From assembly GCA_041666545.1 (NCBI GenBank), contig JBAYGS010000006.1:1154-65153 (forward strand): a stretch of DNA of 64,000 bases. Reading direction: 5' to 3'. How positions within the stretch are numbered: position 1 is the stretch's first letter; each line of letters begins with the position of its first letter. The notes beneath the pieces are model-generated. The model was not told the origin of the DNA. It saw only the letters and a list, made by a program, of their open reading frames with translations, and did not search any database. The DNA comes from Minisyncoccota bacterium (GTDB lineage: Bacteria > Patescibacteriota > Minisyncoccia > Phycocordibacterales > JBAYGS01). A program made the translations under genes and the position numbers. This document shows, piece by piece, positions 4,289 to 40,149 of this stretch.

Positions 4289-7249
4289 CTAAAAAACAAT
4301 ATTATCCGCCTCGCTCGTTCCGTTGTCGTGAACATTTGACTCAGAATCAATGATGACTGAATCTTCTGAATCCAACATTACCCCGACTTCATTTCCAGTC
4401 ACTTCGGTATTTGAAATCTTTACCGGTTCATCTGGCCTATAAATATCAACTCCTGACCCATTAGTAAAACCGGAGATTGTTGAATCTTGGATTTCGACCG
4501 TACCTTTGTAAACCGACACCCCATCACTCTCGCCATTTTTCAGCACCGAGTTTTTAACCAGAACATCAGTATTATAGACAGAGATGGCATCCCCGCCAGA
4601 CACACCATCAATTGTCGAGGAAGACATTGTAAATTTACCACCGTAGACACCGACGGCGTCGGTCTGTAAAGTATTACTGATTGTCGAGGATGAGAGAGAA
4701 ATCGAGGCCAAATCATAACCCGAAACGGCTTCCCGCGTAGTACTAGCAAAGTTTAAATTATTGAGGACTGCCACACCGTTGTCATAGACCTCAATACCCG
4801 ACTCGTTATTAGTAAAATCTGTATCACTAATGTCCAAACGAGCGTTTCCGTAAACACTCACCCCTTCGAGATTTTCAAAATTAGCATTTGAAATTGTACT
4901 CGTGCCGATAGCATCCTTAAAATTGAGACTGCCAGCGTGACCACCATCGAATGCCTGAAAGGTTATTTCGTTATCGACCGTACCATTGGCCTGAAGTTGA
5001 CCAAAAAAATCCAGACTGCTTAAAGATTTAAACTTGATGATTGTCCCCGGCTCAATTGACAGCGTACTAGAAGCACTAACTTCTTGTTGATTGGTGACAA
5101 TATAAATGGACTCATCATCGCCGAGAGACAGGTCTGTGAGGATATCCTGGCCCTTATTAATGAGATAATTAACACTATTTCTTTCGCCTGGTGTCCCATT
5201 TATTTCATTGCTATCAGCATCCGAACCGTTCCTGATAAATCCCAAATTGGTACCCCAATTACTCAAGTTCAAACCACTTTCCATTGAGGCAAAACGCTCC
5301 ATGGTCGCTCGAGTGGTACTACTAACATTTGAACCGGCAGCCCAACCTCCGGAAGAAATTGCCGGCGTTTGGTCCAGAGTGGTCGAAGCGTAAGACAGGC
5401 TAAGCTGTTCCCCGTTGTTGCCGAGCGAACCGGTGTAAACTTGGTAGGCCAGAACATCAGTAATTGTATCGTCATTGGTCCGCTCGAAAACCAAATACTC
5501 GCGAGGCCTGATCACACCAGAGAGAGCGATGTGCGGTGTGCCAACAGTAGCCTGAATTTCCCACTGTGACAAATCAATCGTGTGGTCAGTATTGTTTTTA
5601 ATTTCCAGCCACTCATCACTCGCCGACGCCCCAGTGCCCATCCAGGCAATTTCGTTAATAGCAATGGGAATTGTGGCCACCGAAACGGTTTGTGTGCTAG
5701 TAGCGCTCGTTTGATTCAAAGTATCAACGGCCGAAACACCAAAAATGTAATCGCTAAAATCCGGTGCGACAACTTGAACGGCCGTTTCAGTGGTTGTTGA
5801 ATAGACGCCGTTCTGGTCAAGAGCGTAAAATTGGGCACCCTCAACCGGTGCCCAAGAAAACTGCAAGGTTGTGGTTGCCAAAAGACAGCCATCGGTCGCG
5901 AGCGAGGCCAGACATTGCGAACCGGTAAGACCGGGTGCCGGAGGTGGCGGCGAACTTAAATCATCTAACACCTCGGCCTCGACCGGAACCGCAACTGGGG
6001 GAGGTTTAAAAGGAATCCCTCCGCCATACCCGGGAATAATTGTCGGTCCGATAAAAATTAATTTTGGGCTTTCAGGCTCATCTACCAATTCAGAGTTTTG
6101 CTCCGAATCCTCTGGCGCTAAGGCAACGACAACGGGTTGATCCGAATTGGAGGCATTTGGAACCAAGACCCTTTCAGCTAAAATCCTATTCCTTGAATCA
6201 ATTATTGCTTGATCAATTCTCGCTTTATCAATCGCCGAGAGCGCCAATCCCACGTTGCCAGACAAAGCGACGCTGTCGGCTGAGCCGGCAAACACCGAGG
6301 AAATTGTGCTCGCCACAAAGTCTCCAAATTGAGCAAGCGTACTGAAAGTCCAGACCCCGGCCTTAGCAACAGCCAAGCCGCCTTGATAAAGACCGGAGAC
6401 AGTCGCCACCATCACCTTTTCAGTACCACCAAAAATTGGGTCGAAAACCCCGAACGCAACGCCTTTGGCAACCTGCTTGATTGAAAAAGCTGGTGAATCG
6501 ATACAAGGCTTATCGGCAACTTGAGTATCGTTATTTTTAAGCCTATCAAGCGCCTCTCGAATATCGCTCACAACCCGAGCGCCTTGATACTTTAAATAGA
6601 TTTGTGAAAAATCGTGCCGCCAGAATTCGTCTCCTTCGTGCACCGGAATCTCAATGTTGGGTGGTAAAATATTTCTTCCTAGAATCTTCCCGACAATTTT
6701 TGCAATTGCCAGATCATTGGTCGAAGTCAGATATTTTCCGCCTCCTGCCACTCGCCCAGACGGAGTTGCCACCCCGTAAACTCCGAGGGAGCCCTTGGGT
6801 ACTCCACCGGCTTGGTCGGCCACCACATCATAAAAATTGTTGGCATAAAAATTGCCCTGTGAGTGGGCAACAATTAACAGCTTTTGAGTTTGGACTTTCT
6901 CGCTCGCCACCTTCAGCATTTCGATCAAGTCATAGTCAACGACAGTCTCATTATCGTACAATCCTTGCTCAACAGTCTTCGCAAAATCCCCGCCTCCGCC
7001 AAGGTGTGATGGGTTCCAGAGAAAATCGACAACTACTCGCTCATTATTATATTTAGCAGGTAAAAGTTTTTTTAATGCATCTTTATTTTCTCTAGCACTA
7101 ACCTCATTAGTTAGAATCCCGTTTATTGTAAGAATGCTATAACCACTTATTTCACACCCGTCTTCAGCTTGTGCAAAAACTGATGATGAAAAGGCAAAAA
7201 ACAGTACAACCGAGGCAAAAATTACTTTTGTCAAAAAACTGAACATCAT
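4289..7249 (-). CDS. Secreted multidomain protein: alpha/beta-hydrolase (lipase-like AHSQG), lamin-tail domain, right-handed beta-helix (PbH1) repeats
   Basis: Signal peptide (MMFSFLTKVIFASVVLFFAFSSSVFA). IVAHSQGN nucleophile elbow. Pro-rich linker. LTD motif INEIAWMG...DEWLEIKN...DLSQWEI. C-terminal Asn/Gly-rich parallel beta-helix repeats. Confidence 0.7.
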   Translation of the reverse strand: MMFSFLTKVIFASVVLFFAFSSSVFAQAEDGCEISGYSILTINGILTNEVSARENKDALKKLLPAKYNNERVVVDFLWNPSHLGGGGDFAKTVEQGLYDNETVVDYDLIEMLKVASEKVQTQKLLIVAHSQGNFYANNFYDVVADQAGGVPKGSLGVYGVATPSGRVAGGGKYLTSTNDLAIAKIVGKILGRNILPPNIEIPVHEGDEFWRHDFSQIYLKYQGARVVSDIREALDRLKNNDTQVADKPCIDSPAFSIKQVAKGVAFGVFDPIFGGTEKVMVATVSGLYQGGLAVAKAGVWTFSTLAQFGDFVASTISSVFAGSADSVALSGNVGLALSAIDKARIDQAIIDSRNRILAERVLVPNASNSDQPVVVALAPEDSEQNSELVDEPESPKLIFIGPTIIPGYGGGIPFKPPPVAVPVEAEVLDDLSSPPPPAPGLTGSQCLASLATDGCLLATTTLQFSWAPVEGAQFYALDQNGVYSTTTETAVQVVAPDFSDYIFGVSAVDTLNQTSATSTQTVSVATIPIAINEIAWMGTGASASDEWLEIKNNTDHTIDLSQWEIQATVGTPHIALSGVIRPREYLVFERTNDDTITDVLAYQVYTGSLGNNGEQLSLSYASTTLDQTPAISSGGWAAGSNVSSTTRATMERFASMESGLNLSNWGTNLGFIRNGSDADSNEINGTPGERNSVNYLINKGQDILTDLSLGDDESIYIVTNQQEVSASSTLSIEPGTIIKFKSLSSLDFFGQLQANGTVDNEITFQAFDGGHAGSLNFKDAIGTSTISNANFENLEGVSVYGNARLDISDTDFTNNESGIEVYDNGVAVLNNLNFASTTREAVSGYDLASISLSSSTISNTLQTDAVGVYGGKFTMSSSTIDGVSGGDAISVYNTDVLVKNSVLKNGESDGVSVYKGTVEIQDSTISGFTNGSGVDIYRPDEPVKISNTEVTGNEVGVMLDSEDSVIIDSESNVHDNGTSEADNIVF

Positions 7250-9863: not shown

Positions 9864-12800
9864 TTAGTTAGCCCGTGTCCAAGTCTGGATTGGGAAGGCG
9901 GTATTGGATGGGAATCCAGGCATACCGTATCCGTTGGTCCAGTCTAGGTTGCTTTGTGTAGCAGCTGTAGCGACAGGGGTTGTGGTCGAGAACGGCGACC
10001 AGACGATGTTATCGGTGTTAGCAGCGCCAAGTTCGACTGAAGTGACCGTACCCATGTTGTTTGCCAACGAAGGGTATGAGGTGTCAGCGAGAAGGGCGAG
10101 GTTAACAGACTCCGACACAGAAGCGGTGTCAGTCGCAGTTGAAGCCTTCAAGATGTAAGTCTTTGAGCTGTTAGCTGGAATGATTTGAGCTTCTGAGGTT
10201 CCACTAGCAGTAATTTCCAAGACATCACCCTCGGTTGAGTTGACAGTGACAGCAGAGGTATTGAAGGCCACTGAATCGCCGTAGAGAGTGAAGCCGTTAA
10301 CATTGCCACCTGTTGTAGCAAGTGAGAATGTGAACTTCTGGAAGACTACTGATCGGCTATTTGGGTTGGTGACAGTGAACTTGTACAGGTCAGCTGAAGC
10401 GGACAATGTGCCACCGTTGCTGGTAACTGTAATGTAAGGCACTGTTCGGAAGATTCTCAAACCATCAGAGGTTTGATCGGAGGTTGTTCCTGAAGAAACA
10501 GTTGAACCTGAATCAACACCAGTACCATAAGTTCCGTTGATACCAACATTCGAGCCATCTACAGATACACCGATGAAAGCACCAGGGGTACCAGTATCAG
10601 GATCTTGAACGCCGAGGTCAGCCGTGACAACGATTCGAACTGAATCACCACCCTTGGTTAGTCTAACCGGGGTTGATAGGGTTGAAGTTGCGTTGTCAGG
10701 ATTACCACCACCGAATTGAGCTTCGCCCAAGTAGTTGGCGGTAGAAACACTACCCTTGTAGAGTTTGACCTTGTTTGAGATATCAGCAGGAGAACTTGAA
10801 GCGGTGTAAGCCAGTTTCAAAGCAATCTGCTTTAGATCGATATCTTCAGTTGCACCGACAAAGTCGAAGCGTCCGATGACAACATCAGAAGCACCGGCTT
10901 GGGCCATCTTGTAGAGCAATGAGGTGTCTTCTGCGACGGTAAAGGTACCGGCGCTAGAACCTGTCATTGTCTGGCCATCAGCAATAGTGATGGTTTCAGC
11001 AATCGTAGCACCCGAGGTGACGCCAGTGACTCCCGTGTAAGAAGACTGGGCGTTGATGCCCCAGATAAAGCTACCTGAAGTGGCTGAAGACGATGAATTA
11101 CATCGCAATGACAAAGTCTTGGCGGTTCCCTTTGGAACAACTAGGCCGTTGCCAGAGAATGTAAAGGTAATGTCACTGTCGTTGCTGGTTGAAGGATCAA
11201 CCGCACTTTGAGTGACAATCGGTGAAGTTAATGACTGACCATCGTACAAATTACAGCTGGTCAAATAAGTAGCGGTAGCACCACCACTCAATGAGAGACC
11301 GATGTTGGTCAATCGAGCATCTTCTCCAGAGTTGGTTGCGTCGAGGATGTATCTAGCATACTCGAACTTCTGAGCACCAGCAACGACTGATCGAGCTGAC
11401 GGCAAAGAAGAAACCGAGATGCTAAGAGCACCTGAACGAACGGTCATCTGGGAACCAGTCAAAGTAGCGTTAGGGGTCGGAGTGATTGAGTTACCAGTGT
11501 TAACGCCTTTAACGGTAGTGAAGGCACTTGATGGGTTAGCTGCGGCAGTGAAGACGGAACCATTCCAAACTCCAGTTGGCAACTTGCCTTTCAAGTAGTA
11601 CTTGTTGGCACCGATTGGGAAGGTGACGGTAGAAGAGAAGGTGACTGTTCGAGCAGTGACCTCATCAACCGGACCGGCCAAAACTGCGCCGTTGGCATCA
11701 ACCAAGGTGACATTGTCTAGCAAACCATCAGTTGAAACTGACGAGTTGGTTCCTGACGAAGTCGCGATAGTGAATACCATAGTCTGAACAGTGATCGGCT
11801 CACCCTTAACCTCGACTGTGAAGCCCGCGATCTTTTGATCCGGAGCGTTGACAGCGATGTTGGTGGCCGGAGCGCCGACAGTATCAACGCTAACAGTCAT
11901 AGTACCGTTAGACATAGTGACCTGGGCAGCATCGTACCAAGGATCTTCAGATGAACTGAAGGCCGCGGTATCAGCAGTAGGAACAGAAGTACCGGTTTGA
12001 GGAGGAGTGACGCCATAACCATAGGTCTCACCCATCAAATCAATATCAGTTCTCTTGGCGATATCGAAGTCGATAGTTCTTGAAGAACCGCCAATGATGT
12101 CACCCTTGATAGAGATATCTTTTGAGAAACCTTTATCAATTAGAATGCCGTTACCAGGGAAGATGGAAGTAAAGTACTTACCATCAGAACTTGAAACTGC
12201 ATCGTAGCTAACACCGTCGACATAAGTCTTTAGGTTGGCCATGTCAGAAGCGGAAGCTGAACCGGTCTGATTCCAGCGAATTGATCGCAAGAAAACCTTC
12301 TCAGCTGAACCAGCAGTAACCTTTACTGAAGAGAAAGTGTACGCAGTGGTACCGATTTCTTTAGTTTGGCTAGTAGTTGGGTCATAACCACCTCGAGTCA
12401 TGGTGACAGTACCGAGGCTCAAAGTAGCGTTGATGGTGTGAGCGGCGCCAGTGATTGGAAGAACTCCAGCGACTGGGGCGTTAGCTGAAACCGAGACGAC
12501 AGTCAAAGAAGCGACTTCACCAGCGTGAACAGTGGCTTGTGCAGCCATGTTACCGCCGATAGTCAAAGTCTTTGAGGTGCCGGCCTTAACAACTACTGGG
12601 CCTGACAAAGTCAATTGATGATTTGAGTTGAAAGTCTTGGCGATTCCAATTTGGGAACCATCCTCGTCAATGAGGACGACTCCGGCAAAGTTGTCATCTT
12701 GTGCCAAGCCTGTTCGCTCAACAGTGACACCGTTAACAGACACATCGCCATCTGCACTGGCAGTCAAAGTCACTTTGGTGAATTTAACGCGAGTTGCATT

Positions 12801-13400
12801 GTAAGGAGCGAGTGAAGCTGACGGCTGAACCGGAGCGGAAACTGTTAGACCTGAACCAACTGGGGCTGTCGGAGTGGTTGGGGTAGTCGGGGTAGTTGGG
12901 ACGGTGGAAACAGGGCCACCCATGGCGTTTACTTTGGCCATCGTGAGAGAGCCGAAGTAACCTACTGCCGGGCTGATACCATTAGCAGCTTGGAATTTAG
13001 CCAAAGCTGCTTTAGTGGCAGGACCGAAGGTTGAAGTCTCATTTCCAGCTGAACCAGCGCCGGAAGCTGCGACTGCGAAACCTTTACCGTTTAGGAATTG
13101 CTGAAGGGCTTTTACATCAGCACCAGTTGAACCTACAGTGAGGCTTCTGGTGAAAGTGTAAGAACCTGCTGACGGAGCTGAAACTGGAGCGCTCCCGGTT
13201 AGGGAAGCTTTGACATTGTTGATGACACTTTGATCAGCACCGAAGCTTGAGAGTAAACCCAAGATTGACTGAACTTGCGCATCAGTAAGCGCACCGGCGC
13301 TTACAGTCTGAACTCCTACTCCTACAAAGAGAGCTAGCGCCAAGGTAACACCTAGGATGCCGGCAAAAATCTTTGCAGATTTAGTTTTTGTAATACTCAT
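9864..13400 (-). CDS. Very large secreted/surface protein with an N-terminal peptidoglycan-binding domain and long Ser/Thr/Gly-rich beta-rich repeats (ORF extends to 13505, probable start MSITKTK at 13400)
   Basis: Signal peptide. PG_binding_1-like segment (GSTGADVKALQQFLNGKGF...ALAKFQAANGI). TPTTPTTPT linker. About 1000 aa of low-complexity S/T/G/V repeats. Confidence 0.7.
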   Translation of the reverse strand: MSITKTKSAKIFAGILGVTLALALFVGVGVQTVSAGALTDAQVQSILGLLSSFGADQSVINNVKASLTGSAPVSAPSAGSYTFTRSLTVGSTGADVKALQQFLNGKGFAVAASGAGSAGNETSTFGPATKAALAKFQAANGISPAVGYFGSLTMAKVNAMGGPVSTVPTTPTTPTTPTAPVGSGLTVSAPVQPSASLAPYNATRVKFTKVTLTASADGDVSVNGVTVERTGLAQDDNFAGVVLIDEDGSQIGIAKTFNSNHQLTLSGPVVVKAGTSKTLTIGGNMAAQATVHAGEVASLTVVSVSANAPVAGVLPITGAAHTINATLSLGTVTMTRGGYDPTTSQTKEIGTTAYTFSSVKVTAGSAEKVFLRSIRWNQTGSASASDMANLKTYVDGVSYDAVSSSDGKYFTSIFPGNGILIDKGFSKDISIKGDIIGGSSRTIDFDIAKRTDIDLMGETYGYGVTPPQTGTSVPTADTAAFSSSEDPWYDAAQVTMSNGTMTVSVDTVGAPATNIAVNAPDQKIAGFTVEVKGEPITVQTMVFTIATSSGTNSSVSTDGLLDNVTLVDANGAVLAGPVDEVTARTVTFSSTVTFPIGANKYYLKGKLPTGVWNGSVFTAAANPSSAFTTVKGVNTGNSITPTPNATLTGSQMTVRSGALSISVSSLPSARSVVAGAQKFEYARYILDATNSGEDARLTNIGLSLSGGATATYLTSCNLYDGQSLTSPIVTQSAVDPSTSNDSDITFTFSGNGLVVPKGTAKTLSLRCNSSSSATSGSFIWGINAQSSYTGVTGVTSGATIAETITIADGQTMTGSSAGTFTVAEDTSLLYKMAQAGASDVVIGRFDFVGATEDIDLKQIALKLAYTASSSPADISNKVKLYKGSVSTANYLGEAQFGGGNPDNATSTLSTPVRLTKGGDSVRIVVTADLGVQDPDTGTPGAFIGVSVDGSNVGINGTYGTGVDSGSTVSSGTTSDQTSDGLRIFRTVPYITVTSNGGTLSASADLYKFTVTNPNSRSVVFQKFTFSLATTGGNVNGFTLYGDSVAFNTSAVTVNSTEGDVLEITASGTSEAQIIPANSSKTYILKASTATDTASVSESVNLALLADTSYPSLANNMGTVTSVELGAANTDNIVWSPFSTTTPVATAATQSNLDWTNGYGMPGFPSNTAFPIQTWTRAN

Positions 13401-14118
13401 AATAATAATTTTCTGATAAATTTTTAAATTTCTAATCTGTGTTCTAATAATCCTTTGGGAAGAAATTATTCTTCGCGGACTCACAACCGTTTCGACTAAA
13501 AACAAATTGCAAACGCGGACGGCAAATTTTCAAAATTAAAAACTTGACGAATTTTTAATCGGAAAAACTTTTCAGATTTTTCCGATCGCATCCAACTATT
13601 CCGGGACCTTTTGTTATCGACACAAGGTCGTCGGACTAGTGACAGAATCCATGGACATTCTTTCGTAAACAGGGTTAACCACTTTGTCGAAGTGGTTCAC
13701 GGAACAAGAAATTTCTGAAGGTCGATATTAAATTTTCAACGACCTGATGAGCACTGAAATAATGGAGTGCTGTTTAAGCAATATGCCAAATTTCGTTGGT
13801 AAATCAATACCAAAGAAATGTCGCCTCACATTGCCTATACAGAATTATAAACTCCACAGGAAATACTGTAAACAAACCGTGTGGATAACTAAAATAAGGG
13901 CTTTTTGGCCCTATCAATTTTCTGGTTATCCGTGGCTCTAATATATACCAAAAGGCCCACTTTAGTCAACCAAAAATGGCCGTATAATCCAATCTCCTTA
14001 AATTATAGAGAAAAACCGGGCAAAATTTAAGAATTCTTCCCCTGTTTCTTTGTACCCAAGATAACCACCGAAAGTGGCAAAATTAAACAAACTGAAAACC
14101 TCTAAGGAAACATAAAGG

Positions 14119-31350: not shown

Positions 31351-31941
31351 CTACAACTGAGTCTCCTGAAGCGACTGGTTAATCATCGAGAGAGCTTGTT
31401 TTTTCCAACTGCCCATTTTAACCAAAACTTCCCCGCTCCAAAACGGTGAAGCTACAAATTCCTCAACTTCCGGCGAACTGCCGAGATAGCCCAAAGAATG
31501 AAGCAGGCGCAAAACCAAAATGTACTCTAAATTTGTCAGCTCGCTTGAATCAAGCGATTGACTTTGGAAAAATTTGACCGTCTCGGATAGATGGTCAAAA
31601 AGTTGCTCATTTTTCTCTTCGCCGTGAAGTAGACGCCGGAGCAAATTAAAAACACGAGCCAGAATTGCCAGAACAGGTTTTTGACCCTTGAATTCAGTGA
31701 ACAGGCTTTGCTCGTGGCCGACATTAGTAATCCGCCAATGTTCTTTGCCTCTGACCAAAGTAATCTCAACCAAATTAAATTCCTGCAATTTATAACGCAG
31801 TTTGGATTTTAAAAACCTGACACCTTGAGCCGAGGCACGGAGTAAACCAAAATCTTTGGTGAAAATCGTGTAAAGCTGATTAGACTCACCGCGGGGTGAA
31901 CTCTTAAGGATAAAAGCCGGAGTGGTGTAAATGGTGTACAT
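31351..31941 (-). CDS. recO: DNA repair protein RecO
   Basis: N-terminal OB region (AFILKSSPRGESNQLYTIFTKDFGLLRASAQGVR) is RecO-like. 196 aa. Confidence 0.6.
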   Translation of the reverse strand: MYTIYTTPAFILKSSPRGESNQLYTIFTKDFGLLRASAQGVRFLKSKLRYKLQEFNLVEITLVRGKEHWRITNVGHEQSLFTEFKGQKPVLAILARVFNLLRRLLHGEEKNEQLFDHLSETVKFFQSQSLDSSELTNLEYILVLRLLHSLGYLGSSPEVEEFVASPFWSGEVLVKMGSWKKQALSMINQSLQETQL

Positions 31942-33381: not shown

Positions 33382-36300
33382 TTAGATATCGAGTCGGAAG
33401 ACGAGGCCATCCACCACAGTTTCGATTCCTTCGGAGAGAACTGGAACAAAATTTAATTTAGTGGCGGTCGTTGAAGTTATTTCTTTTTCATATTTTTTAA
33501 GAAAAGTCTGACCGGCTTCGCTGGTAGCAACTGAAAGATTTTTTATCTCGCCAGGATTAAGATTCTTTTGCTTTCTTAGTTCTTGAACCGCCCGGACAAA
33601 ATCGCGCACACTGCCCTCCTCCTTAAGCTCCGCTGTAATGTTGGTATCGAGCTCCACCGTATCATGGCCGGTCTCCCCCCAAACTACCGCTTTCACATTC
33701 ACCTCATCGGCAATAAGCGCGAGCATTTCCGGCTTATCTTTAATCTTCGAACTATGAATATCGAAAGTCAGCTTCGCCAAAGGTTGGCGAACCTTCAAGT
33801 TGGCTTTGGCCCGAGCTTCTAAGCCGAGTGAAACCACCTTTCTCACCTCCTGCATCCCTTCCAAAACTTCCGAACTTCCCGACTTCTTAACTTCTAAACT
33901 AGCCTCCGGCCATTTCTCCAAATGAACACTCTGAAAATCATTCAAACCTTTAACATTGTCGTACAAGTATTCCGCAAAGAACGGGGCAACTGGAGCCAAG
34001 AGCTTGGCAAACTGTGCTAGCACAAATCTGGTCGCCGCCAGGGCTGATTGTTTATCAACCTCATTGGCGCCTTTAAATCTATCTCGCGAACGCCTCAAAT
34101 ACCAAGTGGACAGATCCTCTACAAAATCTCCGATTGGTCTAACCACCTTATCCAACTCATAGCCTTCAAAGGCTTCGGTCATGTTGTCGGTTGTTTCGGT
34201 TAATCGCGCCAAAATCCAACGGTCCAAAACATTGGTAGAAGTTGGTAGTGAGGAGTGAGTAGTAAGTAGTGAGGAAGAGTACAGAAGATAAAATTGGAGA
34301 ACATTGTCGAGACGGTTAAAAACTTTTTTCAAAACTTCATCAACTCCTTTTTCAGAAAAACAAAGATCTTGAGCCTTAACCACCGGCGAAGCCAAAAGGT
34401 AATAACGCAAAGCATCCATGCCGTATTTATCCACCACTTCCATTGGATCAGGATAATTGCGCAGACGCTTGGACATCTTCTGACCGTCTTCAGCCAAAAC
34501 AATCCCGTTTACAATCACATTTTCATAAGGTGACCGCCCAAAAAGCGCCACACCTAAAATGAGCATGGTGTAAAACCAGCCCCGAGTTTGGTCTTGACCC
34601 TCGGCAATAAAGTTGGCCGGAAAATTCTTTTGCCTTTTCAGAAAGCCACCCGGACTGAACCGGCTTTTATCGAAAGGATAATGAACCGAAGCAAATGGCA
34701 TCGAGCCGGATTCGTACCAACAGTCAAAAACCTCCGGCACCCGTTTCAGAGTCCCGCCACAAGAGCATTGGGTTTTGACACCATCGATAAAAGGCCGGTG
34801 CAAATCGATTTCAAATTCCTCGTTTCTAGGCAAAATGCGCAAGGTCACCTCTTTGACTTCGGCATTTTTTAGAAACAAATCCGGTCCATGAAAAGCGACC
34901 GCGTCTCCACGATTAAGTCCAAGGGCGGCCACTCCGATGAGCCAGGCAGGAGTATCGTGCGTCACGATTAAAATCGTTTTGCCTTCATACTTATTTTCCA
35001 ACTCAAAAAGTCTCCGCCCAACTCGCTTCCTAACATCGGCCTCACTCTCCCCACCCCCCGGCCGTTCGTCAAAGCGCGCTTGCGGGCTTTTAAAGAAGGC
35101 ATGATATTCAGAAATGGATTTTTTTTCAAAAACACCGAAAGAAATTTCGTGAAAACTTTCATCGACAATCACCGCTGTCTCCGGTAAATTCAGAACTTTT
35201 CGGACAATTTCCGCCGTTTCCTTGGTCCGGTTTAAAGGTGAGGTGATAACCAAATCAATCTTTTGACCCTTCAAGGCTTCGGCCGACTCAAACGCCTCTT
35301 TGACGCCAAGTTTAGTGAGACCATTACAATCAAGCAGAGAACAGACAACCCCGCCAACATTTGAGGTTGACTCGCCGTGACGCATTACTAGAAATTTGTT
35401 GCGCGGTTTCGCCTCGAGTTTCTCCAGGTCAGCCAGACTACCAACCACCTCAAGCCGAGCGCACTTGTCACAGCGCCAGACCGGCAAGGGCGCGCCCCAG
35501 AAGCGGGAGCGAGAAATTGCCCAATCGCGTGCGCCTTCGAGCCATTTTCCGAAGCGACCATCTTTCACATCTTCAGGCACCCAACTGATTCCTTGGTTTG
35601 CCTTGATCAATTTATCTTTGAGAGCGGTAACTTTTACAAACCAAGATGAAGTCGCGTAGTTGATAAGCGGAGTGTCACAGCGCCAACAAAAAGGATAACT
35701 GTGGGTGAATTTTTCTTTAGCAAAAAGCTTGCCGGCATGCGCTAGCCACTTAATTATCTCGACATCAGTTTTGGTCGGATCTTCCTTTGGTTTAACCGAA
35801 AGGCCGAGGAAATCTTTGACCTCCGGTTTGAAAACGCCATTGGTGCCAACATGCTGAACAAAAGGCAAGCTAAATTTAAGTGACAACTGATAGTCGTCCT
35901 CACCGAAGGCCGGGGCAATGTGAACAATGCCGGTGCCATCTTCGGTCGTCACAAAATCCGCCGGATAAATTTTCCAACCGTTTTCGCGATTCTTTAATTT
36001 TGAATCTTTGGCGTAATAATCAAAAAGTTGTTCATACTCAAGACCAATAAGCTCGTCCCCTTTTATAGTCTGAAGGACTCGAAAAGTTTGACCTTTAAAA
36101 ACTTCCGGCAATCTGGCGCTTGATACGATATATCGTATGTTTTCGAGCTCAACCAGAGAGTATTCAATACTCGGATTTACCGCAAGCGCCGTATTCCCCG
36201 GCAAAGTCCAAGGGGTCGTAGTCCAGGCCAATATATAAGTTGGGAGCCCCGACGCTTGCCGCAAGGTCGGGGTCCCGACTCGGGCGTCGGAATTTAGAAG

Positions 36301-36939
36301 TTTAAACTTAGCAGTCACAGATAAATCAGTCGTATCCTTGTAGCCTTGAGTCACTTCAAAGTTTGAAAGTGTCGTCTCACAATGAGGACAAAGGTGCATC
36401 GACTTAAAACCTTCATAAATCAGACCTTTATCATAAAGAGTTTTGAATGACCACCAGACCGATTCAGTATAACTGGTATCCATTGTCCGATAATCCGCTT
36501 CCATGTCTACCCACCGACCAAGACGAGGCACAATTTTCCGCCAATCGCCGGCGTAGCGCATCACCGATTCGGCTGAAGCGCGATTAAATTTGTCCATGCC
36601 GTAATTTTCAATATCTTTTTTTGAAGATAGGCCCAGCTCTTTCTCCACCAAGTTTTCTACCGGCAGACCGTGGCAATCCCAACCCCAACGCCTAGGCACA
36701 TGAAAACCCCTCATTGTTTTATAACGAGGAATGGCATCTTTAATCAAACTGGCCAAGATGTGGCCGTAGTGGGGCAAGCCGTTGGCAAAAGGTGGACCAT
36801 CATAAAAGACAAACTCTTTGCCACCTTCAGTTTGTTTTAAGGATTTCTCAAAAATTTTCTCTTTTTCCCAAAAAGCTAAGATTTTTTCTTCTCTTTCAGC
36901 CACTTTGTTCTTAGCGATTTTCTGCTGATTTTCTTCCAT
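33382..36939 (-). CDS. ileS: Isoleucyl-tRNA synthetase (type 2) carrying an embedded histidine-phosphatase (PGAM-like) domain of about 200 aa inside the catalytic domain
   Basis: HYGH and KMSKR class-I motifs, plus CP1/editing, Zn and anticodon-binding regions. Between WRCDKCARLEVVGS and EIDLHRPFID lies an insert with LVMRHGESTSN, ITSPLNRTKETAEIV and ILIVTHDTP, which are hallmarks of histidine phosphatase branch 1. Confidence 0.85.
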   Translation of the reverse strand: MEENQQKIAKNKVAEREEKILAFWEKEKIFEKSLKQTEGGKEFVFYDGPPFANGLPHYGHILASLIKDAIPRYKTMRGFHVPRRWGWDCHGLPVENLVEKELGLSSKKDIENYGMDKFNRASAESVMRYAGDWRKIVPRLGRWVDMEADYRTMDTSYTESVWWSFKTLYDKGLIYEGFKSMHLCPHCETTLSNFEVTQGYKDTTDLSVTAKFKLLNSDARVGTPTLRQASGLPTYILAWTTTPWTLPGNTALAVNPSIEYSLVELENIRYIVSSARLPEVFKGQTFRVLQTIKGDELIGLEYEQLFDYYAKDSKLKNRENGWKIYPADFVTTEDGTGIVHIAPAFGEDDYQLSLKFSLPFVQHVGTNGVFKPEVKDFLGLSVKPKEDPTKTDVEIIKWLAHAGKLFAKEKFTHSYPFCWRCDTPLINYATSSWFVKVTALKDKLIKANQGISWVPEDVKDGRFGKWLEGARDWAISRSRFWGAPLPVWRCDKCARLEVVGSLADLEKLEAKPRNKFLVMRHGESTSNVGGVVCSLLDCNGLTKLGVKEAFESAEALKGQKIDLVITSPLNRTKETAEIVRKVLNLPETAVIVDESFHEISFGVFEKKSISEYHAFFKSPQARFDERPGGGESEADVRKRVGRRLFELENKYEGKTILIVTHDTPAWLIGVAALGLNRGDAVAFHGPDLFLKNAEVKEVTLRILPRNEEFEIDLHRPFIDGVKTQCSCGGTLKRVPEVFDCWYESGSMPFASVHYPFDKSRFSPGGFLKRQKNFPANFIAEGQDQTRGWFYTMLILGVALFGRSPYENVIVNGIVLAEDGQKMSKRLRNYPDPMEVVDKYGMDALRYYLLASPVVKAQDLCFSEKGVDEVLKKVFNRLDNVLQFYLLYSSSLLTTHSSLPTSTNVLDRWILARLTETTDNMTEAFEGYELDKVVRPIGDFVEDLSTWYLRRSRDRFKGANEVDKQSALAATRFVLAQFAKLLAPVAPFFAEYLYDNVKGLNDFQSVHLEKWPEASLEVKKSGSSEVLEGMQEVRKVVSLGLEARAKANLKVRQPLAKLTFDIHSSKIKDKPEMLALIADEVNVKAVVWGETGHDTVELDTNITAELKEEGSVRDFVRAVQELRKQKNLNPGEIKNLSVATSEAGQTFLKKYEKEITSTTATKLNFVPVLSEGIETVVDGLVFRLDI

Positions 36940-37024: not shown

Positions 37025-37597
37025 CTAAGCAAGCATGCGCTCCTGCTTCCGCCACCGCGAGAGGCGGTACTTGGCGGCATCGAAAAACTCACGCTGATTA
37101 TCCACCTGAAAGCCCTTGGACAGGAGGCTGTGCATCTCCTCGATTTTAAAGCTGGCCCTGGTCCTGCCACGAAAGTCGTGACAAGGCAAAGAAACCAGCT
37201 CTTCGATCTCGAAGGCGAGCCGATGCAAGACGCGCTGTTTCAACATTTCGAACTGCCAGTCCGAAATCGGCGCGACTGGCAGGATGGTGTTGAACAGCCT
37301 TTCGAACCGAGTCTTGTATATCCGAAACTCGGCCACAAACTCCTCGCCCTCCGGCCCTAGCTTATTCACGGTGAGAAAGTAGAGTGTCCGCGAAGTGGCA
37401 ATGGCTACCAATCCAAGCACCGTTTGCCAACTCCAGCCAGTGCCCTGTGTGATCATGGTACTCACCACCAGGACTACAGCCATGAGGGCCAGAGTGTTCC
37501 AGATCACCCCCTCCTGGACAATCTTAATCATCACGAGAGCCTGCTCGAGCGTCAGCCCGTAGCATTTAGCGAATTTTTCAAGAACTGTTTTTTTCAT
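37025..37597 (-). CDS. Hypothetical membrane protein (2 TM plus cytoplasmic domain, possibly bPH-like), strongly GC-rich
   Basis: 190-aa ORF with its own terminator. GC content visibly well above that of its neighbours. Confidence 0.45.
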   Translation of the reverse strand: MKKTVLEKFAKCYGLTLEQALVMIKIVQEGVIWNTLALMAVVLVVSTMITQGTGWSWQTVLGLVAIATSRTLYFLTVNKLGPEGEEFVAEFRIYKTRFERLFNTILPVAPISDWQFEMLKQRVLHRLAFEIEELVSLPCHDFRGRTRASFKIEEMHSLLSKGFQVDNQREFFDAAKYRLSRWRKQERMLA

Positions 37598-38442: not shown

Positions 38443-40149
38443 CTACATTACTTCTGGTGATTTGATACCCAATAGATACAGACCGTTTTTCATGACTTGA
38501 GAAAAAGCCCTAACCAATACTAGTCGGTAATATTCACCTTCACCCGAACCGATGATTTTTGTATTCGCATAAAAACTATTAAAAGCGCCTGCAATTTCAA
38601 TCAGATAAGTAGCAATATGATGGGGTGAGAACTCCTGTTGCGCCCTTTCAACAACCTCTGGGAAACGAATCAGGTGTCGCTCTAAAACTCCCACCTCATT
38701 ACAAGGTCCGGCCTTGTCGTACAAGGCCGGACCTTGTAATTTCGCCTTGCGTAAAACCGACTGGGCGCGGGCATAGGAATACTGCAGGTACGGACCGGAG
38801 TCACCCTCAAAAGAAATAGACTTTTCTAAATCAAAGATGATATCGCCACCGATGGCTTGCCTCAAAATCGAGTATTTAATCGCCCCAACCGACACCTCGT
38901 TGGCAATCCGATTCTTTTCTTCGGTCACGAGTTCCCTTTCGGCAATTTTCTCGTGGACCATTGATTCAACTCCCAGAAGTAGCGACTCCCCCGTAATCAC
39001 ATCGCCGGTTCGAGAAGACATCTTACCGGTTGGTAGCCGGAGCATGCCATGAGAGAGATGCTTGGTTTTCCTGGCTAATTCTGGAAAAACTAAACTCATC
39101 GCGCAGAGTAAGACTTTAAAATATTCTTTGATCTCATTTCCGGTCACCACTACCGAAATGTCATAAGAATATTTGTCGTGTTTAACCTTAGACAAACCCA
39201 ACTCTTTCGCTTCATAGGTTGGCAAACCTTCCTTGTTCAGAAAAACTCTGGTATGCAGACCATGGTCTTCTCCTTTGAAAATCACTGCGCCATCACTTTT
39301 TTCAAAAACCCCGTGAGGCAGAAATTCTTCGACAACTTGTTTGCCGATTGGCCCAACTTCGCTTTCGAAGAAATAAAAATCAAATTTGGTTCCGAGCTTA
39401 TGATATATCGTCTCAAAATAATCCAGACTCGCTTTCCTACCCCAATCAAAAAGCTGGTTGATTTTCTCATCACTTCGTTCGTAAACTTTCTTATTCAAAT
39501 CTTGAATCTCCTTCTTGGCTTTCTCACTGTCATCTTTAGCGCCAAAGGCGTAACAGGAACCCAGAAAAGCGACCTGTTCGGAAGGATTATTACTCTTCGC
39601 CTCCGCCAATTCTTTGGCTTTGTGCTCCATTCCCCAAATCGCTTTGGCTACATGGAGACCTACATCACCTTGGTAATTGGCTCTTTTGACTTCAGCACCG
39701 GTATATTCAAAAAGCCTGGCGATTGACTCACCGATTGAATTCGACATCAGGTGACCGATATGAAATTGCTTAAAAGGATTAGGGTCGGTATATTCCACGA
39801 TAACTTTTTTGCCCTTGAGAGATTGGTTTCGGCCAAAATTGCCGTCTTCGACAATTTTGGCCATCTCTTCACCCAAAAATTTTGCTGACAATTTAAAATT
39901 GATGAAGCCAGGGCCAGCCACAGAAATTGACTCAATCTCTTTTAGTTGTCTTTGGGAAATTTCTTTAATAATCAGTTCGGCCAATTCGCGGGGATTCTTG
40001 CCCACCTTCTTAGCACAAGCTAAAGCCACATTAGTCGAAAAATCTCCGTGCGACAAATCAGCCGGATGTTCCAAAACTATTTCCGGAGCTTCAATTTTTA
40101 GATTACCGAGGGCTCCGATAACCGCCTTTTTTAGTTCATTCTGTACCAC
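38443..40149 (-). CDS. argS: Arginyl-tRNA synthetase
   Basis: Class-I HIGH-region HIGH (PFKQFHIGHLMS). DALR anticodon-binding domain. C-terminal ...PEVM. Confidence 0.9.
   Translation of the reverse strand: MVQNELKKAVIGALGNLKIEAPEIVLEHPADLSHGDFSTNVALACAKKVGKNPRELAELIIKEISQRQLKEIESISVAGPGFINFKLSAKFLGEEMAKIVEDGNFGRNQSLKGKKVIVEYTDPNPFKQFHIGHLMSNSIGESIARLFEYTGAEVKRANYQGDVGLHVAKAIWGMEHKAKELAEAKSNNPSEQVAFLGSCYAFGAKDDSEKAKKEIQDLNKKVYERSDEKINQLFDWGRKASLDYFETIYHKLGTKFDFYFFESEVGPIGKQVVEEFLPHGVFEKSDGAVIFKGEDHGLHTRVFLNKEGLPTYEAKELGLSKVKHDKYSYDISVVVTGNEIKEYFKVLLCAMSLVFPELARKTKHLSHGMLRLPTGKMSSRTGDVITGESLLLGVESMVHEKIAERELVTEEKNRIANEVSVGAIKYSILRQAIGGDIIFDLEKSISFEGDSGPYLQYSYARAQSVLRKAKLQGPALYDKAGPCNEVGVLERHLIRFPEVVERAQQEFSPHHIATYLIEIAGAFNSFYANTKIIGSGEGEYYRLVLVRAFSQVMKNGLYLLGIKSPEVM

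What the first reader, a model, noticed from the sequence alone, without database searches (positions are those of the whole stretch)
34816..35406. Histidine-phosphatase (RHG) domain embedded in the catalytic core of IleRS
- A contiguous, well-formed PGAM-type histidine phosphatase module of about 195 aa (roughly residues 512-708) sits inside IleRS.
- Its motifs are LVMRHGESTSN, ITSPLNRTKETAEIV and ILIVTHD.
- It lies between the conserved WRCDKC...EVVGS segment and the DLHRPFID / CSCGG zinc segment. Type-2 IleRS normally has only a short connector there.
- The module is in-frame and flanked by intact synthetase motifs, so it is not an assembly chimera.
- I do not recall such an architecture in an aminoacyl-tRNA synthetase.
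- It could add a phosphatase activity (for example on a nucleotide or on the 2',3'-cyclic / 3'-phospho tRNA end), or it could act as a regulatory module.
Basis: partly seen in the sequence, partly recalled or inferred. Interest (0 to 1): 0.7.

Follow-up and report, generated by a model that had tools for sequence, protein, structure and literature searches.

The report
Histidine phosphatase nested inside IleRS
The isoleucyl-tRNA synthetase of this ultra-small (Patescibacteria/CPR) bacterium carries a complete, apparently active phosphatase enzyme spliced into one of its surface loops; hundreds of related genomes share this, relatives keep the same phosphatase as a separate gene just upstream of the synthetase gene, and no paper found here describes it.

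Summary
The ORF at window 33382-36939 (-) encodes a 1185-aa type-2 IleRS. Residues ~512-700 (nt 34840-35406) form a complete branch-1 histidine phosphatase (Pfam His_Phos_1, E=2.7e-32). It sits in the CP3 zinc-knuckle hairpin, where ordinary IleRS2 has 7-8 residues.

It is neither a chimera nor a one-off:
- More than 150 representatives of 50%-identity clusters match flank, insert and flank in one stretch.
- One exact-motif scan found relatives in 459 GTDB species genomes. The best 80 are all Patescibacteria, and 79 of them embed the module in an IleRS ORF.
- The phosphatase catalytic residues (R520, H521, R571, E598, H661) are invariant or nearly so, although the domain averages only ~30% identity. 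The IleRS synthetic and editing motifs are intact.
- AlphaFold models are confident (pLDDT 90 full length, 94 insert). The nearest folds are small-molecule phosphatases (GpgP, PspA, CobC, PhoE).

New finding: in sister lineages the same phosphatase is a free ~190-aa gene lying 2-5 bp upstream of an insert-less ileS (argS–HP–ileS–x–recO). The window has the same synteny, but with the phosphatase inside ileS. Other relatives carry it at other IleRS sites or in 2-3 copies.

The substrate is unknown. The best reading is an active accessory phosphomonoesterase functionally tied to IleRS. I found no publication describing it.

The parts
33382..36939 (-). ileS ORF, 1185 aa: type-2 IleRS with a nested phosphatase
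   Evidence: (TIGR00392 891 bits). The model superposes on IleRS2 structures (TM normalised to target 0.83-0.85).
34840..35406 (-). Complete His_Phos_1 (branch-1 histidine phosphatase) domain, residues 512-700, nested in CP3
   Evidence: E=2.7e-32. (insert model pLDDT 93.6, pTM 0.90). (Foldseek top hits GpgP, PspA, CobC, PhoE). (aligns end to end with free ~190-aa phosphatases).
35374..35382 (-). RHG motif (R520, H521, G522); H521 is the predicted phospho-accepting nucleophile
   Evidence: for the coordinates. R520 and H521 are invariant in 55/55 and 68/68 sequences.
35227..35229 (-). R571, second phosphate-binding arginine (SPLNRTKETAEI motif)
   Evidence: 54/55 and 68/68.
35146..35148 (-). 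E598, predicted general acid/base
   Evidence: 51 E plus 4 D out of 55; 68/68.
34957..34959 (-). H661, second catalytic histidine (ILIVTHD)
   Evidence: 55/55 and 68/68.
35461..35478 (-). WRCDKC: first half of the CP3 zinc knuckle, just upstream of the insert
   Evidence: The cysteines are kept in ~39-43 of 55 family members. [quoted passage not shown]
34753..34806 (-). DLHRPFID...CSCGG: IleRS segment and second half of the CP3 zinc knuckle, just downstream of the insert
   Evidence: H714 is invariant and P716 is 54/55.
36760..36771 (-). HYGH: the class-I HIGH signature
34465..34479 (-). KMSKR: the class-I KMSKS signature
35920..36222 (-). CP1 editing-domain signatures TTTPWT (36205-36222) and GTGIVH (35920-35937)
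   Evidence: Invariant or nearly so in the family.
38443..40149 (-). argS, the upstream gene of the conserved block argS–(HP)–ileS–x–recO
   Evidence: argS lies upstream on the same strand in 47 of the 60 GTDB loci with enough upstream DNA and in 5 free-phosphatase loci.
37025..37597 (-). 190-aa ORF with no family, occupying the slot where relatives have the free phosphatase gene; not homologous to it
   Evidence: no Pfam hit. (hhalign probability 0.2% against the phosphatase profile).
31351..31941 (-). recO, the downstream member of the conserved block
   Evidence: recO was found in 64 of 80 GTDB loci.

Best explanation
This is a bifunctional enzyme. An otherwise ordinary type-2 isoleucyl-tRNA synthetase carries a complete PhoE/CobC-class histidine phosphatase nested in the hairpin of its CP3 zinc-knuckle subdomain.

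Shown:
- The domain is whole and confidently folded.
- Its catalytic set (R520, H521, R571, E598, H661) is fixed across a family in which the rest of the domain has drifted to ~30% identity.
- The synthetase's HIGH, KMSKS and editing motifs and its overall fold are intact.
- The same phosphatase exists in sister Patescibacteria as a free ~190-aa gene 2-5 bp upstream of an insert-less ileS, in the same argS–ileS–recO block. The two forms are mutually exclusive at the locus.
- Other relatives carry the domain at other IleRS positions or in 2-3 copies.

Inferred:
- The module is an active phosphomonoesterase that works through a phospho-His521 intermediate.
- It is functionally tied to IleRS. It is the covalent version of a two-gene module, giving 1:1 dosage and co-localisation.
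- It does not take part in the aminoacylation chemistry itself.
- Because its closest relatives are all small-molecule phosphatases and it also works as a free protein, its substrate is most likely a small phosphomonoester, plausibly a nucleotide-type one, generated or needed where tRNA-Ile is charged. The exact substrate is not known.
For: Domain identity and boundaries.

Insertion point is a short linker in normal IleRS2: 8c8u; L085 orthologue, 56% and 44% identical on either side, ~7 residues in between.

CP3 nomenclature and variability: PMC7191050.

Family size:
- 201 representatives at E<=1e-30.
- All but a handful of the best 150 match the query across flank, insert and flank; most do so over the whole 1-281, and the rest are N-terminally truncated fragments.

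Taxonomy:
- 459 GTDB species genomes hold a relative.
- The best 80 are all Patescibacteria.
- In 79 of 80 the module is embedded in an IleRS ORF.

Catalytic residues invariant: 55 sequences and 68 sequences.

The insert evolves faster than the core (0.305 against 0.44-0.50 mean pairwise identity) but co-diverges with it (Mantel r=0.61, 0 of 2000 permutations).

Structure:
- Full-length pLDDT 90, pTM 0.85, with linkers at pLDDT 88-94.
- Insert pLDDT 93.6.
- IleRS body TM 0.83-0.85 to solved IleRS2.

Nearest relatives: PhoE, PspA and CobC by sequence; GpgP, PspA, HFP, CobC and PhoE by fold.

Free gene next to ileS: 5 of 7 look-ups.

The window has the same synteny.

No second free copy in any of the 80 insert-bearing loci.

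The free proteins align end to end with the insert.

Alternative sites and multiple copies.
Against: - No activity, substrate or phenotype was or could be measured.
- Functional coupling is inferred only from fusion plus neighbourhood. Because the free gene lies next to ileS, recombination into ileS is mechanically favoured whatever the function, and housekeeping synteny is generally conserved in these genomes.
- Variable insertion sites argue against a geometry-dependent role at the synthetic site.
- No model coordinates were available, so the distance and orientation of the phosphatase pocket relative to the aminoacylation site, the editing site or the tRNA path are unknown.
- The papers I read assign no tRNA contact to CP3.
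- None of the NCBIfam equivalog cut-offs (CobC, PspA, dPGM, SixA, RNase H/acid phosphatase) is reached, so no substrate can be transferred by homology.
Confidence: 0.5

Rival explanations
1. tRNA-end repair or quality-control phosphatase. The module removes a 2'/3'-phosphate (or the opened product of a 2',3'-cyclic phosphate, or a pyrophosphate) from the 3'-terminal ribose of tRNA-Ile. IleRS supplies the tRNA binding, so the phosphatase acts as a third catalytic site on the synthetase.
For: - The module shows persistent and repeated physical linkage to IleRS in particular. It occurs at three or more insertion sites and in 2-3 copies, and as an operon partner with a 2-5 bp gap.
- It is rigidly packed on CP3 of the domain that handles the acceptor end (linker pLDDT 88-94).
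- The best NCBIfam hit, although far below its cut-off, is the RNase H/acid phosphatase fusion family.
- Precedent recalled from memory, not tested here: the HD domain of the E. coli CCA-adding enzyme has phosphatase and 2',3'-cyclic phosphodiesterase activities.
Against: - All close sequence and fold relatives act on small molecules, and no protein- or RNA-directed histidine phosphatase appears among the top hits.
- The embedded domains are charge-neutral (median pI 6.4).
- The apparent basic charge of the free forms is explained by low-GC, lysine-rich proteomes.
- The insertion sites differ, so no fixed geometry towards the CCA end is conserved.
- No reason is known why only tRNA-Ile would need this.
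- The papers I read report no CP3-tRNA contact.
Confidence: 0.2
2. Hitch-hiker. An independent housekeeping phosphatase with no functional connection to IleRS was captured into permissive surface loops of the neighbouring, highly expressed essential gene during genome streamlining, and is kept because the cell needs the phosphatase anyway.
For: - The free gene lies directly next to ileS, which makes local recombination into ileS likely.
- CP3 is a hypervariable subdomain with a different topology in each solved IleRS.
- The same IleRS family also tolerates unrelated modules, namely GNAT and a P-loop kinase-like domain, at several loops.
- The phosphatase class is the broad-specificity PhoE type.
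- The insert evolves faster than the host.
Against: - A simple read-through fusion of two genes 2-5 bp apart would give an N-terminal fusion, not a precise internal nesting. None of the sequences examined shows an N-terminal fusion.
- Independent nesting at several sites, and in 2-3 copies of the same domain within IleRS, is hard to explain neutrally.
- The linkage, as either an adjacent gene or an insert, is retained over deep divergence (IleRS cores down to ~40% identity) with mutually exclusive distribution.
Confidence: 0.2
3. Protein phosphatase. The module reverses phosphorylation of IleRS itself, or of a neighbouring translation factor such as ArgRS, for example phosphorylation by HipA-type toxin kinases that target the KMSKS-loop serine of class-I synthetases.
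For: - The histidine phosphatase superfamily includes protein phosphatases (SixA, PGAM5, Sts-1; general knowledge).
- The module is linked genetically to two class-I synthetase genes.
- A weak SixA match exists (32.9 bits).
Against: - The SixA score is below its cut-off (74.5).
- The domain retains the cap subdomain typical of small-molecule enzymes, and its best relatives are PhoE, PspA and CobC.
- No kinase partner was seen in the conserved block.
Confidence: 0.06
4. Non-catalytic role. The domain serves as a phospho-ligand sensor, a dimerisation module or a structural buttress for CP3, without turnover.
For: - Related phosphatases such as GpgP and PspA are dimers (general knowledge), so the insert could dimerise IleRS.
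- The module packs rigidly against CP3.
Against: All five catalytic residues are invariant over ~120 sequences while the surfaces drift. That is the signature of selection for catalysis.
Confidence: 0.03
5. Artefact. The insert is an assembly chimera, an intein or a mis-called frame.
For: None found.
Against: - There is one uninterrupted frame with uniform composition.
- The same architecture occurs in hundreds of independent assemblies from several sources.
- No Hint or intein domain is present.
- The full-length model is confident.
Confidence: 0.01

Closest known systems
Type-2 IleRS (Priestia megaterium IleRS2, PDB 8c8u; Thermus thermophilus IleRS, 1ile)
   Same: The order of catalytic, CP1 editing, CP2, CP3, anticodon-binding and type-2 C-terminal domains is the same. 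HIGH and KMSKS are present. The CP3 zinc knuckle (CxxC...CxC) matches that of the T. thermophilus enzyme. E=2e-222 to 8c8u, and TM 0.83-0.85.
   Different: About 190 extra residues forming a whole enzyme domain replace a ~8-residue turn inside CP3.
Broad-specificity and small-molecule branch-1 histidine phosphatases: PhoE (1ebb/1h2e), PspA (4ij5), CobC (6nru/6e4b), GpgP Rv2419c (4pz9)
   Same: Same fold and size. Same catalytic residues (RHG, second Arg, Glu, second His). Profile E=2e-31 to PhoE. Foldseek E~1e-13 with TM ~0.7.
   Different: Those are free-standing proteins. This one is nested in a synthetase, or, in relatives, is encoded 2-5 bp upstream of ileS. No equivalog cut-off is reached, so the substrate cannot be inferred.
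NCBIfam NF040702, 'isoleucine--tRNA ligase, N-acetyltransferase domain-containing'
   Same: A curated precedent for an IleRS that carries an extra enzyme domain. One relative here (P0158) has both GNAT and His_Phos inserts.
   Different: The window protein has no GNAT domain and scores 370 bits against a cut-off of 1999. The NCBIfam scan returned no model specific to a His_Phos-containing IleRS.
Rv2228c-type bifunctional RNase H/acid phosphatase (NCBIfam PRK07238)
   Same: A nucleic-acid enzyme joined to a CobC/PhoE-like histidine phosphatase. It is the best NCBIfam match for the insert (81 bits).
   Different: That is an end-to-end fusion with a different partner, not a nested insertion. The score is far below its cut-off of 326.
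E. coli CCA-adding enzyme with HD-domain phosphatase / 2',3'-cyclic phosphodiesterase (recalled from memory, not tested)
   Same: A tRNA 3'-end enzyme that carries its own phosphohydrolase domain. This is the functional analogy behind the tRNA-end rival.
   Different: The fold is unrelated (HD versus histidine phosphatase) and the arrangement is terminal rather than nested. The analogy is a lead only.

Membership tests
Isoleucyl-tRNA synthetase, type 2 (TIGR00392 ileS) | Profile score above the curated cut-off | tested here: met
   891.1 bits against a cut-off of 621.4.
Isoleucyl-tRNA synthetase, type 2 (TIGR00392 ileS) | Class-I HIGH and KMSKS signatures | tested here: met
   HYGH at 57-60 and KMSKR at 821-825.
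Isoleucyl-tRNA synthetase, type 2 (TIGR00392 ileS) | CP1 editing domain with the T-rich and GTG(I/V)VH motifs | tested here: met
   TTTPWT at 240-245 and GTGIVH at 335-340, invariant or nearly so in the family.
Isoleucyl-tRNA synthetase, type 2 (TIGR00392 ileS) | Type-2 C-terminal organisation, with closest structures being IleRS2 or eukaryote-like IleRS | tested here: met
   DUF5915. Best PDB matches are 8c8u, 9w01, 1ile and 7d5c. TM 0.83-0.85.
Isoleucyl-tRNA synthetase, type 2 (TIGR00392 ileS) | Isoleucylation of tRNA-Ile | not testable with these tools
   Needs an enzyme assay.
Histidine phosphatase superfamily branch 1 (Pfam PF00300) | Profile score above the gathering threshold | tested here: met
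   112.5 bits against 21.7, E=2.7e-32, profile positions 2-171 of 194.
Histidine phosphatase superfamily branch 1 (Pfam PF00300) | Catalytic core: RHG nucleophilic His, two Arg, a Glu and a second His | tested here: met
   R520, H521, R571, E598 and H661 are present and conserved in 55 and 68 relatives.
Histidine phosphatase superfamily branch 1 (Pfam PF00300) | Alpha/beta fold of the superfamily | tested here: met
   Insert model pLDDT 93.6. Foldseek probability 1.00 and TM ~0.7 to GpgP, PspA, CobC and PhoE.
Histidine phosphatase superfamily branch 1 (Pfam PF00300) | Phosphomonoesterase activity through a phospho-histidine intermediate | not testable with these tools
   Needs an assay, with H521A as control.
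Cofactor-dependent phosphoglycerate mutase (dPGM; NF038349, TIGR01258, NF010713) | Score above the curated cut-off and a full-length match | tested here: not met
   73.8 against 225, 26.6 against 81.7 and 23.5 against 305. Most PDB dPGM chains match only over about the first 100 profile positions.
Alpha-ribazole phosphatase CobC (TIGR03162) | Score above the curated cut-off | tested here: not met
   71 bits against 162.9.
Phosphoserine phosphatase PspA (NF045917) | Score above the curated cut-off | tested here: not met
   61.1 bits against 350.
Phosphohistidine phosphatase SixA (TIGR00249) | Score above the curated cut-off | tested here: not met
   32.9 bits against 74.5, matching the N-terminal 70 residues only.
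GNAT-containing IleRS (NF040702) | Score above the cut-off and presence of a GNAT domain | tested here: not met
   369.8 bits against 1999. No acetyltransferase domain in the Pfam scan.
Mupirocin-resistance IleRS MupA/MupB (NF000257/NF000258) | Score above the curated cut-off | tested here: not met
   714 and 754 bits against 1900.
Intein / Hint domain | A Hint-fold domain in the inserted interval | tested here: not met
   The Pfam scan finds only His_Phos_1 in residues 505-712. The insert aligns end to end with free phosphatases.

The most novel reading that the evidence does not exclude
The phosphatase is a third catalytic site of IleRS that acts on the tRNA, or on a synthetase-bound nucleotide. 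One example would be removing a blocking 2'/3'-phosphate or pyrophosphate from the 3'-terminal adenosine of tRNA-Ile. In that case Patescibacteria would have a phosphate-removal step built into tRNA charging, encoded either as a CP3 insert or as a partner protein translated together with IleRS.
Probability: 0.2. Interest if true: 0.85.

Novelty: new variant of a known kind. Interest (0 to 1): 0.62.

Why it matters
Aminoacyl-tRNA synthetases are among the best-studied enzymes, and bacterial ones are regarded as architecturally conservative. Here an essential synthetase carries a complete second enzyme in a surface loop of its catalytic domain, across a very large and poorly understood bacterial radiation.

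The same phosphatase alternates between three forms: a partner gene, a CP3 insert and inserts at other sites. That gives Rosetta-stone evidence for an unrecognised link between a phosphomonoesterase and Ile-tRNA synthesis, or at the least a clear natural example of repeated domain nesting into an essential enzyme.

It is directly testable because the domain is small, soluble-looking and has an obvious knockout mutation (H521A).

It also matters in practice. Gene callers and annotators label these proteins simply 'IleRS' or 'class I tRNA ligase family protein', so metabolic reconstructions of CPR genomes would miss a phosphatase hidden inside ileS.

Tried and rejected
I replaced it with A3, built from members that share RTKETAEI. 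The count of 459 species is therefore a motif-restricted lower bound.
- The AFDB50 fold search, meant to find catalogued UniProt entries with this architecture, was unavailable.
- Model coordinates are not exposed, so I could not measure the distance from the phosphatase pocket to the synthetic site, the editing site or the tRNA path.
- Insert-versus-core distance correlation on the 50%-identity representatives was weak (r=0.14) because the distances are saturated. Repeated on GTDB loci that include closer relatives, it was clear (r=0.61).
- Charge as a clue to an RNA substrate: the free, ileS-adjacent phosphatases have pI ~10 and net charge +15 to +25, against pI 6.4 for the embedded ones. 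But those genomes are 27-39% GC and their neighbouring proteins are basic too. I rejected this as evidence.
- The 190-aa ORF between argS and ileS in the window is not a decayed phosphatase.
- No direct or inverted repeats bracket the insert, and its GC content shows no anomaly. There is no sign of a recent mobile insertion.
- The P-loop insert of P0181 and the GNAT inserts of P0158 gave only weak, generic matches (APS, shikimate and homoserine kinases, Pnkp1; RimI, MshD), so no common functional theme could be extracted.
- The direction of change (adjacent gene to insert, or the reverse) could not be resolved. At least 3 state changes are needed on the core NJ tree (50 of 50 bootstraps), but free phosphatases resemble each other more than they resemble any embedded copy.
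- Seven literature searches and four papers read found no description of this architecture.
- My first guess that L001 uses code 25 (TGA=Gly) was wrong. The TGA positions align to Trp columns.
Full report
**1. Observation**

The minus-strand ORF at window 33382-36939 encodes a 1185-aa protein. Pfam finds four things:
- tRNA-synt_1 (E=7.4e-136), split into two stretches
- His_Phos_1 at residues 517-685 (E=2.7e-32, 112.5 bits against a gathering score of 21.7)
- Anticodon_1
- DUF5915

NCBIfam's ileS equivalog is passed (891 bits against 621).

**2. Where the insert sits**

- The closest solved structure, Priestia megaterium IleRS2 (8c8u, E=2e-222), aligns to residues 12-507 and 710-1109. Only ~8 of its own residues lie between those blocks.
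- The insert lies between the two halves of a CxxC...CxC zinc knuckle (WRCDKC at 488-493, CSCGG at 725-729).
- PMC7191050 names this element the CP3 subdomain. It is zinc-binding in Thermus thermophilus IleRS and has a different topology in each solved IleRS. It is a peripheral, variable part of the connective polypeptide, not the catalytic core proper.
- The folded phosphatase ends near residue 700. The following ILPRNEEFEIDLHRP belongs to IleRS, because a relative with no insert at this site keeps LPRNDAGEVDLHRP (P0153).

**3. Is it a functional enzyme domain?**

I aligned 55 full-length family members that are only ~40% identical to the window protein. The phosphatase catalytic residues are fixed:

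| Residue | Conservation |
|---|---|
| R520 | 55/55 |
| H521 | 55/55 |
| R571 | 54/55 |
| E598 | 51 E + 4 D |
| H661 | 55/55 |

- A second, independent set of 68 sequences from GTDB genomes gives 68/68 for all five.
- The domain as a whole evolves faster than its host. Mean pairwise identity is 0.305, against 0.44-0.50 for the synthetase core. This fits selection on catalysis with relaxed surfaces.
- The synthetase's own HIGH (HYGH), KMSKS (KMSKR) and editing motifs (TTTPWT, GTGIVH) are conserved too.
- AlphaFold2 models are confident. The full-length model has pLDDT 90 and pTM 0.85, the insert is a separate alpha/beta lobe, and both linkers are at pLDDT 88-94. The insert alone has pLDDT 93.6 and pTM 0.90.
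- The synthetase body superposes on solved type-2 IleRSs with TM 0.83-0.85, normalised to the target.
- The insert's nearest relatives are small-molecule phosphatases:
  - By sequence profile: PhoE (E~2e-31), PspA and CobC.
  - By fold: GpgP Rv2419c, PspA, a riboflavin-pathway HFP, CobC and PhoE.
- No NCBIfam equivalog cut-off is reached (CobC, PspA, dPGM, SixA, RNase H/acid phosphatase), so homology assigns no substrate.

**4. Distribution**

- An exhaustive HMMER search of 1.84 billion cluster representatives found 201 hits at E<=1e-30.
  - All but a handful of the best 150 span flank, insert and flank.
  - Many of these are full length, at 1100-1270 aa.
- A GTDB scan restricted to the exact peptide RTKETAEI found relatives in 459 species genomes.
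  - The best 80 are all Patescibacteria. They are labelled Taylor-, Yonath-, Nomura- and Campbellbacteria, Paceibacterota, Minisyncoccia and 'Saccharibacteria'.
  - In 79 of the 80 the module lies inside an IleRS-length ORF.
- The window's own protein is not in these collections. The best matches are 51% identity over the insert region and 65% over the IleRS core.
- Insert and core distances co-vary (Mantel r=0.61, 0 of 2000 permutations), as expected for long vertical co-inheritance.
- One lineage (L001) encodes the same architecture with ten in-frame TGA codons. Nine of them align to conserved Trp columns.

**5. The new piece: a free-standing equivalent next to ileS**

- A profile of the insert alone retrieves many ~190-aa stand-alone histidine phosphatases that score as well as the embedded copies.
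- For five of the seven I looked up, which are the better-scoring ones, the gene order is AA_kinase – argS – His_Phos – (in one case a small ORF) – ileS – x – recO. The gaps are 2-5 bp.
- The downstream gene is an IleRS orthologue. It is 56% and 44% identical to the window's enzyme on either side of the insertion point, with ~7 residues in place of 204.
- The window has the same block: SHMT – argS – 190-aa ORF – ileS::His_Phos – x – Ser_hydrolase – recO – DUF11. Its argS–ileS spacer ORF is unrelated to the phosphatase.
- Among the 80 insert-bearing GTDB loci:
  - None has a second, free copy within ±4 kb.
  - argS is upstream on the same strand in 47 of the 60 loci with enough upstream DNA.
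- The free proteins align end to end with the insert, from NKY(F/Y)xxRHG to the last strand.
- The phosphatase is therefore either a tightly coupled partner gene or a nested domain, but not both.
- On a core-only NJ tree, at least three changes of state are required (50 of 50 bootstraps). The direction is unresolved, because free phosphatases resemble each other more than they resemble any embedded copy.

**6. Variants**

Relatives also show the following:
- The domain between the catalytic and anticodon-binding domains, with no CP3 insert (P0153).
- Two copies (P0111).
- Two complete copies plus the start of a third, at yet other positions (P0151).
- Combination with two GNAT inserts (P0158).
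- Combination with a P-loop kinase-like insert (P0181).

NCBIfam already curates a GNAT-containing IleRS (NF040702). Embedded enzyme domains in IleRS are therefore a known kind of thing, but the NCBIfam scan returned no model specific to the phosphatase variant.

**7. Mechanism**

Shown: two intact catalytic machineries in one chain, a rigidly attached complete phosphatase domain, and genetic linkage to ileS in both forms.

Inferred: the module is an active phosphomonoesterase (phospho-His521 intermediate) that is functionally associated with IleRS.

- Its relatives act on small molecules, it also operates as a free protein, and its position on IleRS varies. I therefore favour a small, probably nucleotide-type phosphomonoester as substrate (confidence ~0.5 for the whole statement).
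- The rivals are:
  - a tRNA 3'-end phosphatase (0.2)
  - a functionally unrelated hitch-hiker captured from the neighbouring gene (0.2)
  - a protein phosphatase acting on the synthetase (0.06)
  - a non-catalytic role (0.03)
  - an artefact (0.01)
- I could not measure the geometry between the phosphatase pocket and the tRNA path, because model coordinates are not exposed.
- The structural papers I read assign no tRNA contact to CP3.
- A charge argument for RNA binding failed its control.

**8. Novelty**

- Seven full-text searches found no description of a histidine phosphatase in or next to IleRS.
- Four papers were also read, with the same result. They include a 2026 survey of 96,219 IleRS sequences and the AARS Online catalogue paper.
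- The sequences themselves are public and are annotated simply as IleRS or 'class I tRNA ligase family protein'.

I classify this as a new variant of a known kind: a synthetase with an accreted enzyme domain. It is real, widespread and uncharacterised.

**9. Loose parallel**

The CobC-family histidine phosphatase gene of E. coli lies in the leuS–lptE–holA–nadD–cobC–rsfS–rlmH cluster. This shows only that such genes can sit among translation genes elsewhere. It is not evidence of shared function.

Noticed in passing
L001:4423-8013 (NCBI GCA_027024305.1, contig JALVSO010000054.1); also L002: The insert-bearing ileS of this genome has 10 in-frame TGA codons and no other stop. Nine of the ten align to invariant or near-invariant Trp columns. 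The genome therefore appears to read TGA as Trp (code-4-like), not as Gly as in the code-25 Gracilibacteria and Absconditabacteria. Gene callers split the gene into 5 ORFs.
   Followed up: partly
Proteins P0153, P0111, P0151 (from; Pfam): The same histidine phosphatase domain is nested at other IleRS positions. These include the segment between the catalytic and anticodon-binding domains and the segment just before ADFIAEGxDQTRGW. It also occurs in multiple copies per protein: two in P0111, and two plus the start of a third in P0151.
   Followed up: partly
Proteins P0158 and P0181: Some insert-bearing IleRSs carry further enzyme-like modules. P0158 has two GNAT acetyltransferase inserts. P0181 has a P-loop kinase-like insert (AAA_18/AAA_33, with weak matches to APS, shikimate and homoserine kinases and Pnkp1). 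Their roles are unknown.
   Followed up: partly
window 37025-37597 (-): A 190-aa ORF with predicted hydrophobic stretches and no Pfam family sits between argS and ileS, in the slot where relatives have the ~190-aa free phosphatase gene. It is not homologous to the phosphatase (hhalign probability 0.2%).
   Followed up: yes
window 1-64000: The whole 64 kb contains no tRNA gene (ARAGORN) and no Rfam family at gathering threshold. Three class-I synthetase genes lie within 15 kb of each other: argS 38443-40149, ileS 33382-36939 and metG 25218-26687, all on the minus strand.
   Followed up: no
window 4289-7249 (-) and 9864-13505 (-): Two very large ORFs (986 and 1213 aa) have only small recognisable parts. 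The first has Beta_helix and a Lamin Tail Domain; the second has a peptidoglycan-binding domain. They are probably surface or cell-envelope proteins, which is typical of episymbiotic CPR bacteria.
   Followed up: no
window 34588-34872 (+) and 35396-35659 (+): Two ORFs of 87-94 aa lie on the opposite strand inside ileS, and both overlap the insert region. They have TTG starts and odd composition, and are most likely spurious shadows of the ileS frame.
   Followed up: no
L091:4576-5292: In one free-phosphatase lineage an extra 238-aa acidic ORF with no Pfam family is wedged between the phosphatase gene and ileS.
   Followed up: no
L092 (E. coli K-12 NC_000913.3, 666500-674500): The E. coli CobC-family histidine phosphatase gene lies in the leuS–lptE–holA–nadD–cobC–rsfS–rlmH cluster, among translation-related genes. 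This is a loose parallel to the ileS linkage seen here.
   Followed up: partly
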